Translations under genes and position numbers: made by a program
Shown here: one piece after another, positions 602 through 10,228 of the stretch
Position numbering within the stretch: the stretch's first letter is position 1
How the letters are laid out: every line of letters starts with the position of its first letter
Virus genome (UHGV): UHGV-0227640
Origin: a virus
Length of the DNA: 11,035 nucleotides
Strand: one strand, 5' to 3'
Notes under the pieces: model-generated
Databases searched by the model: none
Told to the model about the DNA's origin: nothing
The model's input: the letters and a program-made list of their open reading frames with translations, nothing else

Positions 602-1747
602 TTATTTTTGTTTTATGGTAAATGAAATAACATTGTCAGAATGAATCATATCTGATTCTTTAAATCGTGTAATTGCAGATAACTCATTTAAGGGAAGAGC
701 AAAGATATCAGTTAACTCAGTTACCTTTATGATTGAATGCTTATCAAGAAGTAAAAGTAACTTATTAAGTAACTCAGGCTCTTCTTTTGGGATTGCATCA
801 TCTAACGGCTCCCTACGATGGAATGGCGCTAATTGCTTAAATATATAGCTTTTCTGATTATCGCTGATTAACTTAAGGCTATGACTCCTCATGGCAATAC
901 TACCGATAGATGTAATCCAACGTAGTTTTAATCGTTCTAACGCTGATAAATTTGGACTATAAAATTCACGCCCGAAAGTGGTGGCTGGCATTAAAAAGCT
1001 GGAGGCAAAATAATCGGCCTGCAACTCCACCAGGTCGAATAATTCTTTATCATTCAGGTAGTCATCCTCCACTGCCCTATGCATAATTAAATGGCCAAGT
1101 TCATGAGCAAGACTAAATCGCATGCGAACAGCCGTCTTCGAGCTATCTAACATAATTAAAGGCCGCCCATTATGCCAGAACGAAAAGGCATCAACTTTCT
1201 CACCAGAAGGTAAATGAGAAACCACGATTCCTTTATTTTCAACAAGTCTAGTTAAATTGAGTATTGGACCATCACCTAACCCCCAAAAACGCCTTAATTG
1301 GGTGGACATATCCTCAATATCAGATAGAGACAGAACCTCAAAATCAATAATATCGAATTCAGGCAGAACCACATCTGGTAATTGAGCATATTTTAGACAT
1401 TCATCCAATATTAATGCCGCCCAACGCCCACGTGTTTTCCCTGTAACTCGAGCCTTTTTGGTCGCAGTTGAACGACTTCTAAAATGAATCGCCCCCTCCA
1501 GAGATGGAGAAGCACTGGAGGCTAAGAAAAATCGTTCTGGAAATCCTAACACCTTGGCTATTGCAGAAAGTGTATCAGCAGAGGGAGACTTCAACCCCTT
1601 CTCAAATGACGAAATAGCTTGTCTTGAAATATTGAGCACTCTGGCAAGTTCAGCCATCGTCAACCCTTTTGCCTCTCTTGCCTCCTCAAGGCGACGAGGA
1701 TTAAACGATTTATCAGTAAATGGTGTTTGTGCGATATTCATGCTCAT
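602..1747 (-). CDS. XRE-family HTH fused to ImmA/IrrE-type (COG2856 / M78-like) zinc metallopeptidase; candidate antitoxin/regulator
   Basis: 381-aa ORF. N-terminal XRE HTH (GLTMAELARVLNISRQAISSFEKGLKSP). HEXXH motif HELGHLIMH at about residue 232, as in the ImmA/IrrE family. Start ATG overlaps the upstream stop (ATGA at 1744-1747). Terminator follows. Confidence 0.85.
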   Translation of the reverse strand: MSMNIAQTPFTDKSFNPRRLEEAREAKGLTMAELARVLNISRQAISSFEKGLKSPSADTLSAIAKVLGFPERFFLASSASPSLEGAIHFRSRSTATKKARVTGKTRGRWAALILDECLKYAQLPDVVLPEFDIIDFEVLSLSDIEDMSTQLRRFWGLGDGPILNLTRLVENKGIVVSHLPSGEKVDAFSFWHNGRPLIMLDSSKTAVRMRFSLAHELGHLIMHRAVEDDYLNDKELFDLVELQADYFASSFLMPATTFGREFYSPNLSALERLKLRWITSIGSIAMRSHSLKLISDNQKSYIFKQLAPFHRREPLDDAIPKEEPELLNKLLLLLDKHSIIKVTELTDIFALPLNELSAITRFKESDMIHSDNVISFTIKQK

Positions 1748-2358
1748 GATTGCTGTGATTTAATTATTTGTTCGGTAAGAATCTTGATTTTATCTTCAAT
1801 CTCAGAATCCACATTTTCTGCTTCAACTTCTACCATCGTCATAATTGGTAAAGACTCAGTATAAAGAATCCCGTAATTATCCGAAGAAGGAACAGTTAAA
1901 TTCAGTTTGGACAAGTGCTGATTACTGCCATCATGTAACATATAAACATGTCCACCAGACGCTCTCCCATCCAGGGAGTCGGCATTTTCATCCCCAAAAT
2001 TCAATTCATAATTTTGATTAGCGTAAACAGCTCTATACAATGCCTGCTTAGGAAGTGGCGCATTACCCGATAAATGATGTGCCGTCATTTTCCAGTTGTT
2101 CGAGTGAATCGCAATGTGTTTACAATTTTTAGCAGCATTGCTACCGACTTCAAAATCCAGCCCCACACGCTTAGCCGCATTCTCAAGCAATGCATCGGCA
2201 TAAAACCAGCGCAAATATGACTGTGCTTGAGCCCAAAAAGAACCAAACTCTTTTGCCTTCATATGCGAATGAAGATAAGCCTGTGCTAACGCGATCGAAA
2301 GCTCTTTGCGGCACTCCTTGTCATATGCTTCTAACAACTGTTGAGATAAATTCTGCAT
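1744..2358 (-). CDS. Hypothetical 204-aa protein, first gene of the operon; candidate toxin/effector partner of the HTH-peptidase
   Basis: 204-aa ORF. AAGGA about 12 nt upstream of ATG at 2358. Stop overlaps start of downstream gene. No transmembrane segment or catalytic motif I recognise (His/Asn-rich centre HIAIHSNNW...HHLSGN...GGHVYMLHDGSNQH, acidic C-terminus). Visibly more A+T-rich than the phage core genes. Confidence 0.75.
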   Translation of the reverse strand: MQNLSQQLLEAYDKECRKELSIALAQAYLHSHMKAKEFGSFWAQAQSYLRWFYADALLENAAKRVGLDFEVGSNAAKNCKHIAIHSNNWKMTAHHLSGNAPLPKQALYRAVYANQNYELNFGDENADSLDGRASGGHVYMLHDGSNQHLSKLNLTVPSSDNYGILYTESLPIMTMVEVEAENVDSEIEDKIKILTEQIIKSQQS

Positions 2359-2383: not shown

Positions 2384-2423
2384 TGTCAACCATATTTCCA
2401 TTTAACATCGACTTTGTCAACCA
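2384..2423. promoter_or_regulatory. Putative promoter/operator of the two-gene operon
   Basis: Minus strand reads GGTTGACA (plus 2415-2423) and again GGTTGACA (plus 2384-2392): a TTGACA -35-like hexamer plus a second copy 31 bp downstream near the expected transcription start. The -10 is weak (AAATAT/GAAATA). Possible autoregulatory site for the XRE HTH. Confidence 0.25.
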
Positions 2424-2435
2424 GGTAGATGCTAG

Positions 2436-2456
2436 AAAAACCCGCCGAAGCGGGTT
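2436..2456 (-). terminator. Rho-independent terminator downstream of hok
   Basis: Minus-strand hairpin AACCCGC-uucg-GCGGGUU followed by UUUUU. Core 20 bp AAAAACCCGCCGARGCGGGT is nearly identical to the terminator at 571-590. Confidence 0.6.
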
Positions 2457-2524
2457 AAGCGCGGGTGCATTGAGGATGCCTGACTCATCAGAGGTGGCGA
2501 GGGATTTCTCCCCCGCCTAGTCTC

Positions 2525-2680
2525 TTACTCCTCAGGTTCGTAAGCTGTGAAGACAGCGACCTCCGTCTGGCCGGTTCGGATTCGTACCTCGCAGAGGTCT
2601 TTCCTCGTTACCAGTGCCGTCACTATGACGGTTAAACAGATGACGATCAGGGCGATTAACATCGCCTTTTGCTGCTTCAT
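2525..2680 (-). CDS. hokD: Hok/Gef-family type I toxin (small membrane-depolarising peptide), HokD/RelF-like
   Basis: Not in ORF track (51 aa). Manual translation of minus strand 2680->2525: MKQQKAMLIALIVICLTVIVTALVTRKDLCEVRIRTGQTEVAVFTAYEPEE. AAGGAG 9 nt upstream. From memory this matches HokD (RelF) of E. coli K-12. No relB/relE upstream. Confidence 0.8.
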   Translation of the reverse strand: MKQQKAMLIALIVICLTVIVTALVTRKDLCEVRIRTGQTEVAVFTAYEPEE

Positions 2681-2938
2681 AGCCTGCTTCTCCTTGACCT
2701 TTCGGTCCGTAAGAGGCTAATCTCTATGTGTCGCATAGATATGGCCTCAGATTAATGTTAAGCGTCTTGCAGGACGCGTAATGTTAACTGGGGCTTTTCT
2801 CTATCTGCCTTTTGGTGTTCATGCCTGAGACAGATAGCCTCAAGCACCCGCAGTCATTCTACTTAACTAAGATTTCCCCGCAAACCGTTTTTGTCCGGCA
2901 CAGTAAATATCCAACTAAACCAATGGCGTTCGCTGTAT
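2677..2938 (-). promoter_or_regulatory. hok mRNA leader region; expected position of mok-like coupling ORF and antisense Sok-like RNA
   Basis: 258 bp with no long ORF. A 19-codon uORF (minus 2736->2677, MRHIEISLLRTERSRRSRL) ends in an ATGA overlap with the hok start. Plus-strand TTGACC (2694-2699), 18 bp, TAATCT (2718-2723) could drive an antisense RNA. Inverted repeat CTATCTG/CAGATAG at 2801-2837. Confidence 0.3.
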
Positions 2939-3118
2939 TTACCGCCAGTATTCAATGCACATGACCGCCATGAACACCCCTAAAAAAAGGGCATTTATAT
3001 ATCCAAATATTAATATCAAAACATCAACTTTTTCCATATACCTTGCTGTGAAGATGATGGGCATACATGATACGAACAACCAGAACGCAACAAACAAAAA
3101 CTGCAATGCGTTTTTCAT
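2939..3118 (-). CDS. Small hydrophobic protein (59 aa, two predicted transmembrane helices)
   Basis: MKNALQFLFVAFWLFVSCMPIIFTARYMEKVDVLILIFGYINALFLGVFMAVMCIEYWR. Strong SD (AGGAGG) 4 nt upstream of ATG at 3118. The ORF-track N-terminal extension to 3157 lacks an SD. Embedded in a strongly A+T-rich stretch (about 2950-3290). Confidence 0.55.
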   Translation of the reverse strand: MKNALQFLFVAFWLFVSCMPIIFTARYMEKVDVLILIFGYINALFLGVFMAVMCIEYWR

Positions 3119-3288
3119 TATTCCTCCTACAATCAATGTGCAATTACATTTAAACACACCTCAATTTGGCCGGACATATAAATATCTAAACCAGAAAAAA
3201 TCACTTACATAGCGTTACAAACTCTTTAGTCTAAATATTCATCGTAAAACATTCCCCATACTTATCAGCCCGTTCTGCGCCAGGTAGC

Positions 3289-3605
3289 TCATTGCCTTAT
3301 CTGGGAATCTGTAATCAGGTTTCCGGATGCTGGTGGATTTTCGCGTTTTAGTTGTTCATAAAAGTGCACAGCTTTAACCAGTTCTTCTGATGTAACCGGG
3401 ACTGGCGGGGCAGTGAATAAGGCCTGAATTTCATAGTTCGGCCTGTCGTTACAATCCTCTTTTTTCGGTACATATTTCCAGTCACCAGACCACTACTTCC
3501 CCTGAAAGTCCGTAACGCCTTTTTTTTCACGTAGCGATATCGCCATGCCACTGTTTTTGCTTGCCCCGCCGTTTCATGCCCTTCCTGATAATTAACCTCG
3601 CTCAT
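3289..3605 (-). pseudogene. Decayed Ea22-like paralog (frameshift plus in-frame stop)
   Basis: 5' end (GTG/ATG at 3605, MSEVNYQ...) is DNA-similar to the 5' ends of the Ea22-like genes at 6470 and 7092. After about 20 codons the listed frame turns implausible (basic, low complexity), while the +1 frame carries protein-like WSGDWKYVPKKEDCNDRPNYEIQALFTAPPVPVTSEELVKAVHFYEQLKRENPPASGNLITDSQIRQ ending at 3289, preceded by TAG. Homopolymer runs (T8 at 3520-3527, T6 at 3470-3475) are likely slippage sites. Confidence 0.4.
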
Positions 3606-3778
3606 TCATCGCCCCACTCATCACAATATGCTTCGACCGGAGTTTTTCCTGCTTCATAATCATCACGCCATGCTTCAGCATCAGCAGCACTGCCACCACG
3701 TAACTCTGCATAGTCCATTAACAGTTCATGCCATGCTTCAAAACTGACGTTGTATTTAGTTGAACCAAAATCAGCCAT
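3602..3778 (-). CDS. Small acidic protein (58 aa), hypothetical
   Basis: Manual translation: MADFGSTKYNVSFEAWHELLMDYAELRGGSAADAEAWRDDYEAGKTPVEAYCDEWGDE. GAGG about 10 nt upstream. Start overlaps stop of the 3771-3953 gene and its stop overlaps the start at 3605 (ATGA). Below ORF-track cutoff. Confidence 0.5.
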   Translation of the reverse strand: MADFGSTKYNVSFEAWHELLMDYAELRGGSAADAEAWRDDYEAGKTPVEAYCDEWGDE

Positions 3779-9808: not shown

Positions 9809-10228
9809 ATGGACAAATATGAATTTAGACGACAGCAACTCATCAAAATTCGTGATGAGAAATGCGATGGTAAAGCGGTTAACGTGGCCAGAAAGATCGG
9901 GCGCGAGCCTTCTTATGTATCAAGAATGTTGTACCCAGAGGGGAAAAAGGGAAAAAAACGGATCGCTGATGATATGGTGGAGATTATCGAAGAGTCCTTT
10001 GGGTTACCCCGGGGATGGATGGATGGTATCGTTTCATCATCAACGAACACAGCCTCCAGTTATGAAACAAGGGTTCTAACGCCACGACAACGTATTTTTT
10101 TAGATCTCTTAGACGAACTGCCAGAAAGTGAAGCGGATAAATTATTAAAAACTCTTGAAGAGAAAAAACAGTATTACAATATGATCTACGAAGAAATCCG
10201 TAAAAAGAAAGCACAAAACGCATCATAG
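9809..10228 (+). CDS. Prophage repressor-like HTH protein (positional equivalent of CI/DicA/RacR), 139 aa
   Basis: ORF-track ORF. HTH-like segment AVNVARKIGREPSYVSRMLYP. C-terminal ...LDELPESEADKLLKTL resembles the DicA C-terminal region as I recall it. No S24 peptidase domain. Confidence 0.7.
   Translation: MDKYEFRRQQLIKIRDEKCDGKAVNVARKIGREPSYVSRMLYPEGKKGKKRIADDMVEIIEESFGLPRGWMDGIVSSSTNTASSYETRVLTPRQRIFLDLLDELPESEADKLLKTLEEKKQYYNMIYEEIRKKKAQNAS

What the first reader, a model, noticed from the sequence alone, without database searches (positions are those of the whole stretch)
2939..3290. A+T-rich island with a small two-helix membrane protein gene
Seen: a 59-aa very hydrophobic ORF with a strong AGGAGG SD in a markedly A+T-rich 350-bp stretch that differs in composition from both flanks. 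Inference: moron-type cargo; small phage membrane proteins of this kind often act in superinfection exclusion or as toxins.
Basis: inference. Interest (0 to 1): 0.4.

Follow-up and report, generated by a model that had tools for sequence, protein, structure and literature searches.

The report
Unannotated small prophage membrane protein gene
The A+T-rich patch holds what is very probably a real gene for a 59-residue two-helix membrane protein that standard annotation skips; it is an optional cassette next to the hok/sok toxin module in E. coli lambda-like prophages, and what it does is untested.

Summary
On the minus strand, ATG 3118-3116 to TAA 2941-2939 encodes a 59-aa hydrophobic protein behind AGGAGG (3128-3123), in a stretch of 36.6% G+C against 46.3% for the window.

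ORF length alone is not significant: 10% of shuffles give 59 codons or more. The case for a gene rests on a second subfamily (P0060). It is 59 aa, 41% identical, gap-free with the same start and stop, and only 59% identical in DNA. Differences by codon position are 25/16/31 and pN/pS is 0.33/0.72. Neutral drift keeps such a frame in 0.3% of simulations.

AlphaFold2 predicts a helical hairpin. No Pfam, PHROG, NCBIfam, PADLOC or PDB match exists, and the RefSeq records inspected leave it unannotated.

The family is confined to E. coli/Shigella: subfamily A in 1549 and B in 1043 of 5426 complete genomes. Both lie just upstream of hok or a hok remnant.

The cassette (~2893-3238) fills a variable slot that holds relBE in K-12 Qin and other genes elsewhere. 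I found no own promoter or terminator, so "moron" is only partly supported.

Superinfection exclusion or toxicity is untested. Recent polymorphism (9 nonsynonymous, 1 synonymous) shows no strong purifying selection. Modest interest.

The parts
2939..3118 (-). 59-codon ORF plus stop codon, encoding a two-helix inner-membrane protein (subfamily A; identical to the 59-aa core of CFT073 c1418)
   Evidence: sequence; exact protein on at least 1000 contigs; names include 'Hypothetical protein c1418 [CFT073]' and 'putative membrane protein [UMNF18]'; conserved against subfamily B in this frame only; helix-turn-helix model; intact in 114 of 115 contigs.
3123..3128 (-). Shine-Dalgarno AGGAGG, 4 nt upstream of the ATG
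   Evidence: In 115 anchored contigs it reads AGGAGG in 64 and AGGGGG in 48 (the A-to-G change still allows a G-U pair with the anti-SD). It is lost (GTCGGAGAT) in the decayed copy L207.
3119..3238 (-). A+T-rich spacer (30.8% G+C) between the stop of the upstream gene and the ORF; no convincing promoter
   Evidence: It has 13 single-base polymorphic positions in 120 nt once one recombinant haplotype seen in 2 loci is set aside (my count from the table).
2893..2938 (-). Short spacer between the ORF stop and the hok promoter; no terminator. The first ~35 nt can still be aligned with subfamily B.
   Evidence: Homology with hokW of phage 933W ends at about window 2892.
3239..3605 (-). Upstream nin-region gene, a pseudogene here (frameshift and internal stop); intact 171-aa versions elsewhere end at the same stop (3241-3239)
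   Evidence: PGAP: frameshifted; internal stop; intact WP_001289994.1; C-terminal translation.
2678..2849 (-). hok mRNA leader / sok antisense region of the adjacent hok/sok module
   Evidence: Rfam RF01794 sok, 106.7 bits, E 5.5e-24, full-length model.
2856..2883 (-). Putative hok promoter (TTGCGG, 16-nt spacer, TAGAAT) just upstream of the hok mRNA 5' end
   Evidence: Read from the sequence relative to the start of the Rfam model at 2849. Inference: the tool's 9-of-12 scan did not list it.
2525..2680 (-). hokD toxin CDS (51 aa), the module the cassette is always linked to
   Evidence: Pfam HOK_GEF E 1.2e-23; PGAP hokD WP_000813254.1.
2955..3212 (+). 85-codon antisense shadow ORF, annotated 'hornerin' or 'hypothetical protein' in some phage records; judged not a gene
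   Evidence: annotations; this frame has 2 stops in subfamily B and pN about equal to pS.
2982..2988 (-). T7 homopolymer inside the ORF (codons 44-46), apparent source of the recurrent frameshifted 55-aa variants
   Evidence: variants ...NALFFRGVHGGHVH, mostly from read-archive assemblies; the run is T6 in L207.

Best explanation
It is a genuine gene for a 59-residue inner-membrane helical hairpin, overlooked by annotation. It belongs to an undescribed family confined to E. coli and Shigella. It travels as an optional ~350-bp cassette (spacer, ORF, spacer; window ~2893-3238) in the variable slot between the last nin-type gene and the hok/sok module of Rac/Qin-like lambdoid prophages.

Shown: a strong ribosome-binding site and an ATG; protein-level conservation against a 41%-identical subfamily of the same length, with no gaps; a predicted two-helix hairpin; presence/absence among related phages; and linkage to hok in both subfamilies.

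Inferred: no promoter or terminator of its own is detectable, and it lies on the same strand as the cro-to-Q early-right genes. It is therefore most likely made from the delayed-early (PR to nin to Q) transcript after induction or infection, rather than as a lysogen-expressed moron. The basic N-terminus (MK/MRK) and the neutral-to-acidic loop suggest that both termini face the cytoplasm and the loop faces the periplasm.

The conserved blocks S17-C18-x-P20-I-I-x-T24 and F38-G39-x-x-N42-A43-L44-x-x-G47-V-F (a GxxxAxxxG small-residue ladder with an Asn) flank the loop. They point to specific helix-helix packing, either with itself or with a host inner-membrane protein. The most likely consequence is a membrane-level effect, such as blocking entry of a superinfecting phage genome or perturbing the membrane. 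This last step is a guess (about 25% for exclusion, about 15% for toxicity). The link to hok is best explained by common descent of a two-gene block, not by a shown functional dependence.
For: Translation signals: AGGAGG 4 nt before the ATG. In 115 anchored contigs the SD reads AGGAGG in 64 and AGGGGG in 48.

Second subfamily: phmmer against 1.84 billion representative proteins found P0054/P0060, 59 aa, 41% identity over residues 1-59, E 3.7e-9.

Coding signature between subfamilies: 59% nucleotide identity, no indels, same start and stop. Differences by codon position are 25/16/31; NG86 gives pN 0.33 and pS 0.72 (ratio about 0.19 after JC correction). Four of the other five frames carry stops in both genes; the fifth is open in the window but has 2 stops in subfamily B.

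Neutral simulation of 73 substitutions: no internal stop in 2.8%; start and stop also kept in 0.3%; at least 24 of 59 residues identical in 0.5%. The flanks need several gaps to align, the ORF none.

Intactness: 114 of 115 IMG/VR contigs anchored on a flanking DNA pattern keep the 59 codons.

Structure: helices 2-27 and 31-58, pLDDT 72.8; GRAVY 1.31.

Distribution: subfamily A in 1549 and subfamily B in 1043 of 5426 complete E. coli genomes. It is also present in inducible phages vB_EcoS-640R1, 813R8 and PhiR42_1.

Variable slot.

Linkage to hok: all 84 loci have the hok leader downstream. Subfamily B is followed by a truncated hok remnant, 77-80% identical to hokD.

No promoter, terminator or structured RNA.
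Against: Within subfamily A, 10 segregating sites fall in the ORF: 9 nonsynonymous and 1 synonymous. This fits neutral or relaxed evolution. By my hand calculation it would be unlikely (about 0.002) under a typical dN/dS of 0.2.

Within subfamily B all 3 ORF variants are nonsynonymous.

Polymorphic residues do not avoid positions conserved between subfamilies: 5 of 14, against 5.7 expected (my count).

One divergent copy (L207) has lost the SD and carries frameshifts, although its HokD protein is identical.

Frameshifted 55-aa variants at the T7 run are not rare in read-archive assemblies.

PGAP leaves the ORF unannotated in every RefSeq record inspected.

No expression data of any kind were found. 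The codon-position skew alone is only marginal (chi-square about 4.75, 2 d.f., my arithmetic). The family has just two lineages, so everything rests on one deep comparison.
Confidence: 0.6

Rival explanations
1. True moron for lysogenic conversion. The cassette has its own weak or non-canonical promoter in the A+T-rich spacer. It is expressed in the lysogen, and the hairpin protein excludes superinfecting phages at the DNA-entry step, as T4 Imm and HK97 gp15 do.
For: Low G+C against the flanks. Optional presence in a variable slot among related phages. A 120-nt A+T-rich spacer precedes it instead of the overlapping stop/start junctions seen between several neighbouring ORFs. Subfamily B has a TG-n-CATAAT extended -10-like site 74 nt upstream and stays intact in a dead prophage remnant whose neighbours are pseudogenes. 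The neighbourhood carries defence cargo: hok/sok and a Rosmer-like pair.
Against: No sigma-70-like promoter at 9 of 12 matches, and only poor 8-of-12 matches upstream of the window ORF. No terminator before the hok promoter. No similarity to any exclusion or defence family. No expression or phenotype data.
Confidence: 0.2
2. Not a functional gene: a chance or decaying ORF in A+T-rich, T-biased spacer DNA that hitch-hikes with the selfish hok/sok module. Its apparent conservation reflects recent common ancestry.
For: 9.9% of shuffles give an ORF this long, and an 85-codon shadow ORF exists on the other strand. Polymorphism is 9 nonsynonymous to 1 synonymous. The copy in L207 has decayed. There are frameshift variants at the T7 run. 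PGAP does not call it. There are no family hits.
Against: A canonical AGGAGG lies at a workable distance. An open, gap-free frame of the same length is kept across 41% nucleotide divergence, with the second codon position most conserved and pN well below pS in this frame only. Neutral simulation gives 0.3-0.5%. The SD and the frame are lost together in L207, as expected for decay of a once-functional gene. 114 of 115 contigs are intact.
Confidence: 0.13
3. Membrane toxin, or a partner of Hok. The hairpin either permeabilises the inner membrane itself (like the two-helix toxin GhoT or type I toxins) or modulates Hok in the membrane, which would explain why the two genes have stayed adjacent in both subfamilies.
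For: Adjacency to hok or a hok remnant in both subfamilies, despite 41% nucleotide divergence of the ORF. Size and two-helix architecture resemble GhoT-type toxins (from my knowledge of that family). A conserved GxxxAxxxG ladder with Asn is compatible with oligomerisation.
Against: Each gene survives without the other. The ORF is intact where an IS sits exactly at the hok ATG (about a third of subfamily A loci) and where hok is truncated (subfamily B). Hok is intact where the ORF has decayed (L207). No antisense promoter, terminator or Rfam RNA lies opposite the ORF. No Pfam hit to the Hok/Gef family or to any other Pfam toxin family. An unregulated toxin would be unlikely to persist intact in more than 1000 genomes inside a dead remnant.
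Confidence: 0.07

Closest known systems
Small accessory membrane proteins of temperate phages that act in superinfection exclusion (T4 Imm; HK97 gp15)
   Same: Very small, phage-encoded, predicted to sit in the inner membrane (T4 Imm also has two membrane helices, from my knowledge), optional cargo, compositionally distinct from neighbours.
   Different: No sequence or profile similarity. It sits in the nin/early-right region rather than in a tail or immunity region. No own promoter or terminator was detected. No exclusion phenotype has been tested.
Morons as defined for lambdoid phages (Hendrix/Juhala: an extra gene with its own promoter and terminator, inserted between genes that are adjacent in related phages)
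   Same: An extra ~350-bp block present in some and absent from other related prophages, at a fixed slot and with lower G+C.
   Different: The autonomous promoter and terminator that define a moron were looked for and not found. It is on the same strand as the surrounding early operon.
Hok/Gef type I toxins (PF01848), its immediate neighbour
   Same: Small hydrophobic inner-membrane protein on the same strand; physically linked to hok in both subfamilies.
   Different: Two helices rather than one; no PF01848 match; no mok-like leader frame, no Sok-like antisense RNA and no fold-back mRNA elements.
GhoT/OrtT two-helix membrane toxins (57 aa)
   Same: Nearly the same length and a predicted two-helix hairpin (resemblance recalled from knowledge of GhoT; architecture).
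   Different: No Pfam match at E up to 10; no adjacent GhoS-like antitoxin gene; toxicity untested.
DUF4212 / TIGR03647 small subunits of sodium:solute symporters
   Same: Two-helix small membrane proteins. Subfamily B gives weak hits: Pfam E 0.032, NCBIfam E 0.031 (14.5 bits against a cut-off of 26.05).
   Different: Below threshold, absent for subfamily A, and there is no symporter gene nearby. Most likely a compositional match.

Membership tests
Moron (autonomous extra transcription unit in a lambdoid phage) | Present or absent between genes that are otherwise neighbours in related phages | tested here: met
   The slot between the ...LISxxxxLR* gene and the hok promoter holds this cassette, relBE (K-12 Qin), HP5, or neither, with the 181-aa gene itself abutting hok.
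Moron (autonomous extra transcription unit in a lambdoid phage) | Base composition different from the flanks | tested here: met
   36.6% G+C against 46.6% and 50.5% in the flanks; lowest 2.3% of windows.
Moron (autonomous extra transcription unit in a lambdoid phage) | Own promoter upstream and own terminator downstream | tested here: not met
   No promoter-like site on the minus strand and no terminator-like site in 2400-3700. A relaxed scan gave only poor 8-of-12 matches. The downstream spacer folds no better than shuffles (z -0.65). Consensus scans cannot exclude a weak or non-sigma-70 promoter.
Hok/Gef type I toxin | Match to PF01848, and a single membrane helix with the conserved Hok core | tested here: not met
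   No Pfam hit at E up to 1 or 10. Two helices predicted.
Type I toxin-antitoxin locus (general) | Antisense or divergent small RNA gene with its own promoter and terminator overlapping the toxin mRNA | tested here: not met
   No plus-strand promoter or terminator in 2893-3290. No Rfam match in the island at E up to 1. An undescribed RNA cannot be excluded.
Holin (class II / pinholin) | Two membrane helices plus a charged C-terminal tail, located in a lysis cassette with an endolysin | tested here: not met
   The C-terminus is only EYWR. There are no holin Pfam or PHROG hits. In the related prophage L001 the class II holin and lysozyme genes lie several kb beyond Q, not next to this ORF.
Known anti-phage defence or exclusion proteins (PADLOC-DB, PHROGs) | Profile match to a catalogued defence or exclusion protein | tested here: not met
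   PADLOC gave 0 families. PHROGs gave only phrog_2720 at E 0.93.
New 59-aa hairpin family (subfamilies A and B) | 59 residues, gap-free alignment, invariant W13, S17-C18-x-P20-I21-I22-x-T24, F38-G39, N42-A43-L44, and E56-x-W58-R59 | tested here: met
   Alignment A1; phmmer E 3.7e-9 between subfamilies.
New 59-aa hairpin family (subfamilies A and B) | Located immediately upstream of a hok gene or hok remnant, on the same strand | tested here: met
   Subfamily A: all 84 loci. Subfamily B: truncated hok remnant 60-120 nt downstream.
New 59-aa hairpin family (subfamilies A and B) | The protein is made and inserted in the inner membrane | not testable with these tools
   Only prediction is available. 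No ribosome-profiling or proteomic record was found.

The most novel reading that the evidence does not exclude
The hairpin protein and Hok form an old functional pair rather than two genes linked by descent. For example, the 59-aa protein could gate, anchor or neutralise Hok in the inner membrane, which would add a protein-level layer to the classical RNA-controlled hok/sok system. A related possibility is that the subfamily B copy, kept intact inside a dead prophage remnant at the Rac attachment site in about a fifth of E. coli genomes, has been domesticated as a host membrane regulator. My data do not exclude either reading: adjacency is conserved across the only deep split in the family. 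The data do show that each gene can persist without the other.
Probability: 0.07. Interest if true: 0.6.

Novelty: new member of a known kind. Interest (0 to 1): 0.33.

Why it matters
Small membrane proteins are the class of bacterial genes most often missed by annotation. This family is absent from the RefSeq annotations inspected and from the two K-12 loci checked (the Qin hokD region and the right end of Rac), which are the sites where the two subfamilies lie in other strains. That may help explain why it appears unstudied.

Its two subfamilies are found in 1549 and 1043 of 5426 complete E. coli genomes respectively, including uropathogenic strain CFT073 (as c1418) and inducible phages. If translated, it is a cheap, well-defined candidate for phage-host membrane biology such as exclusion, lysis timing or membrane stress. 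It also marks a variable cargo slot next to hok/sok, which in this window also carries a Rosmer-like defence pair. If it proves inert, it becomes a useful example of how far a strong ribosome-binding site and a clean hairpin can mislead.

Tried and rejected
Family and structure searches, all negative:
- Pfam, PHROGs, NCBIfam and PADLOC for the ORF and for subfamily B gave nothing above noise. The weak DUF4212/TIGR03647 hits for subfamily B are below cut-off and are treated as compositional.
- A PDB profile search gave 0 hits at E up to 10.
- Foldseek against viral models gave only generic hairpins, all at E above 1.

Wider homologue searches found only the two subfamilies:
- A profile search of 5.8 billion proteins.
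- A metagenome scan.
- The GTDB species-representative scan, which gave 3 loci, all labelled E. coli or Shigella.
- tblastn against phages and plasmids.

Signals around the ORF, none found:
- Rfam found nothing inside the island.
- Promoter and terminator scans, including a relaxed one of my own, were negative.
- RNA folding of the 5' region and the downstream spacer gave z-scores near 0.

Tests that did not support constraint:
- Antisense 85-codon ORF ('hornerin'): rejected, because it has stops in subfamily B and pN about equal to pS.
- Helical-wheel test: conserved residues do not cluster on one face (P 0.64 and 0.93), so I make no interface-face claim.
- Polymorphic residues do not avoid conserved positions (5 of 14 against 5.7 expected).

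Literature and K-12:
- A peptide-string search, 'c1418', hok/nin/small-membrane-protein term searches, and the supplementary tables of the Sakai ribosome-profiling paper found nothing relevant. The 'C1418' hit is narX in another numbering.
- K-12 Qin and Rac loci hold no copy of either subfamily.

Full report
**Context.** The window is the early-right/nin region of a Rac/Qin-like lambdoid E. coli prophage, with its genes on the minus strand. In order these are:
- a cI-like repressor at 9809-10228 (+);
- cro-like, YdaT-like/cII-like and replication genes;
- a run of small nin-type ORFs;
- a frameshifted gene at 3239-3605;
- the finding;
- a complete hok/sok module;
- a two-gene insertion (602-2358).

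Rfam places the hok leader/sok region at 2678-2849 (106.7 bits, E 5.5e-24). Pfam confirms HokD at 2525-2680.

**Observation.** The ORF runs on the minus strand from ATG 3118-3116 to TAA 2941-2939, giving 59 aa. AGGAGG at 3128-3123 lies 4 nt upstream. The interval 2939-3290 has 36.6% G+C against 46.3% for the window, which puts it in the lowest 2.3% of equal-sized windows. The flanks are 50.5% and 46.6%.

T occupies 32 of 59 second codon positions, so part of the A+T richness is simply the hydrophobic coding. The 120-nt spacer upstream is lower still, at 30.8%.

ORF length alone is not significant: 9.9% of shuffles reach 59 codons, and an 85-codon shadow ORF lies opposite.

**Is it a gene?** No Pfam, PHROG, NCBIfam or PADLOC family matches. 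PGAP leaves the stretch empty in every RefSeq record inspected. Two phage records annotate the opposite-strand ORF instead.

The word-indexed search found only relatives at about 91% identity or more over the full length (lower values belong to truncated or chimeric entries), all from E. coli or Shigella.

The exhaustive phmmer search of 1.84 billion representatives was decisive. It found a second subfamily (P0054/P0060), also 59 aa, 41% identical over residues 1-59 without gaps, E 3.7e-9.

At the DNA level the two genes compare as follows:
- They are 59% identical, with no indel and the same start and stop.
- Differences fall 25/16/31 on codon positions 1/2/3.
- NG86 gives pN 0.33 and pS 0.72, a ratio of about 0.19 after correction.
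- Four of the other five frames carry stops in both genes; the antisense 'hornerin' frame is open in the window but has 2 stops in subfamily B.

I simulated 73 neutral substitutions. The frame stays free of internal stops in 2.8% of runs. It also keeps its start and stop in 0.3%. It reaches 24 or more identical residues in 0.5%. The flanks need several gaps to align; the ORF needs none.

In a sample anchored on a flanking DNA pattern, and therefore not selected on the ORF, 114 of 115 IMG/VR contigs keep all 59 codons. The SD reads AGGAGG in 64 and AGGGGG in 48.

I put the probability that this is, or recently was, a translated gene at about 0.8-0.85.

**Evidence that tempers this.**
- Within subfamily A, the ORF has 10 segregating sites, 9 nonsynonymous and 1 synonymous. 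The four common ones are V16A, V31I, I37M and Y40H, mostly conservative changes.
- Within subfamily B, the ORF has 3 rare variants, all nonsynonymous, against 25 variable sites in 720 nt of flank.
- There is thus no sign of strong purifying selection on the recent time scale.
- A divergent copy (L207) has lost the SD and is frameshifted, while its HokD is identical.
- A T7 run (2982-2988) generates recurrent 55-aa frameshift variants, mostly in read-archive assemblies, where sequencing error cannot be excluded.

**Anatomy of the protein.** AlphaFold2 on the seven-sequence alignment gives helix 2-27, a three-residue turn and helix 31-58, mean pLDDT 72.8. GRAVY is +1.31, or +1.37 for subfamily B.

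Across the seven-sequence alignment A1, 19 positions are invariant. They include W13, S17-C18-x-P20-I21-I22-x-T24, L36, F38-G39, N42-A43-L44 and E56-x-W58-R59. G47-V48-F49 are also identical between the two reference sequences, but each varies in one rare allele included in A1. G39, A43 and G47 form a GxxxAxxxG ladder.

The two conserved blocks flank the variable loop. The basic N-terminus and the neutral-to-acidic loop suggest an N-in/C-in hairpin; this is inference. Conserved residues do not cluster on one helical face, so I claim no specific interface. Fold and PDB searches are uninformative.

**Distribution and context.** Subfamily A occurs in 1549 of 5426 complete E. coli genomes. It is also found in inducible phages vB_EcoS-640R1, 813R8 and PhiR42_1. 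It corresponds to CFT073 c1418 in its 72-aa GTG-start version.

Subfamily B occurs in 1043 of 5426 genomes, including the type strain ATCC 11775. There it always sits in a decayed prophage remnant at the Rac attachment site. The remnant lies between dbpA-ttcA on one side and uspF-ompN on the other, and holds an integrase remnant, a DUF1627 remnant, the ORF, a truncated hok and a sitD remnant. The ORF is unannotated there as well.

K-12 lacks both subfamilies at the Qin and Rac loci. That may be one reason no experimental data could be found.

**The cassette and hok.** In all 84 loci first collected, the ORF is followed by the hok leader. Subfamily B is followed by a hok 3' remnant 77-80% identical to hokD. 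The ORF-hok arrangement therefore predates the split of the subfamilies.

The two genes are nevertheless separable:
- An IS sits exactly at the hok ATG in about a third of subfamily A loci, and the ORF is intact there.
- hok is truncated in subfamily B.
- hok is intact in L207, where the ORF has decayed.

I therefore read the linkage as descent of a compact block rather than demonstrated co-function.

The slot upstream of hok is variable. It holds relBE in K-12 Qin, an unrelated 87-aa protein in phage Rac 442/2, and a 181-aa gene abutting hok in vB_Apl-pPE4. Homology with hokW of 933W ends at about window 2892. The upstream gene ends at 3239. The cassette is therefore about 2893-3238.

**Expression model.** No sigma-70-like promoter or intrinsic terminator is detectable around the ORF. 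The 5' region and the downstream spacer fold no better than shuffles. Rfam finds nothing in the island.

The ORF is on the same strand as the early-right genes and lies 56 nt upstream of the hok -35 element. The simplest model is co-transcription with the delayed-early operon after induction or infection. A weak lysogenic promoter in the A+T-rich spacer cannot be excluded; subfamily B has a TG-n-CATAAT site 74 nt upstream.

It is a new, undescribed family within a familiar category, the small accessory membrane proteins of temperate phages. Interest is modest, at 0.33. It is a clean, common, annotation-blind candidate, but nothing about it is mechanistically surprising so far.

Noticed in passing
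window 602-2358 (minus strand): A two-gene Rosmer-like anti-phage defence pair is inserted directly downstream of hokD. The 381-aa protein is HTH plus Peptidase_M78 and matches RmrA (PADLOC E 5.5e-102). The 204-aa protein is a weak RmrT match (E 7.5e-10). G+C is 40% for the pair as a whole, with 200-nt stretches down to about 33%. Homology with most other prophages stops at about window 2437.
   Followed up: partly
L055 2935-4330, and about a third of loci L005-L084 (junction equivalent to window ~2679): An IS encoding a 437-aa transposase is inserted exactly at the hok start codon (…AAGCAGGCTAT|TGTTAACACC…). It inactivates hok and leaves the 59-aa ORF and the sok region intact. PhiR42_1 also has a transposase downstream of the ORF.
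   Followed up: partly
L208 3900-4300 (E. coli PU-1; same locus in 1043 complete genomes): A decayed prophage remnant at the Rac attachment site (ttcA side) keeps an intact 59-aa paralogue next to a truncated hok, between an integrase stub and a frameshifted sit-type permease. PGAP annotates nothing on the small ORF.
   Followed up: yes
window 2955-3212 (+): The opposite-strand 85-codon shadow ORF is deposited as 'hornerin' in vB_EcoS-640R1 and 813R8, and as 'hypothetical protein' in PhiR42_1. This is a likely misannotation on the wrong strand.
   Followed up: yes
window 2982-2988 (minus strand, T7 run in codons 44-46): Recurrent 55-aa frameshift variants (…NALFFRGVHGGHVH) map to this homopolymer. 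They come mostly from read-archive assemblies, so they may be sequencing error or real slippage. The run is T6 in the decayed copy L207.
   Followed up: partly
window 2435-2516 (minus strand): A sub-threshold Rfam match to isrK, a Hfq-binding sRNA (26.1 bits against a gathering score of 50, E 0.024), covers the 3' end and terminator hairpin of the hok transcript. This could mean isrK-like RNAs derive from hok 3' ends, or it could be chance.
   Followed up: no
window 3239-3605 (minus strand): The gene upstream of the cassette is a pseudogene here (PGAP: frameshifted, internal stop). It is intact (171 aa, WP_001289994.1) in other strains, and many loci differ from the window by a length difference of about 40 bp near window 3312-3325.
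   Followed up: partly
window 2680-2735 (minus strand), compared with L085 3422-3634: The mok-like leader frame ends at a TGA overlapping the hok ATG in the window. Other alleles have 1-2-nt indels in the leader (at 2697, 2813 and near 2732), and gene callers there report a 70-aa Hok_Gef product. The mok/hok frame relationship therefore differs between alleles.
   Followed up: no
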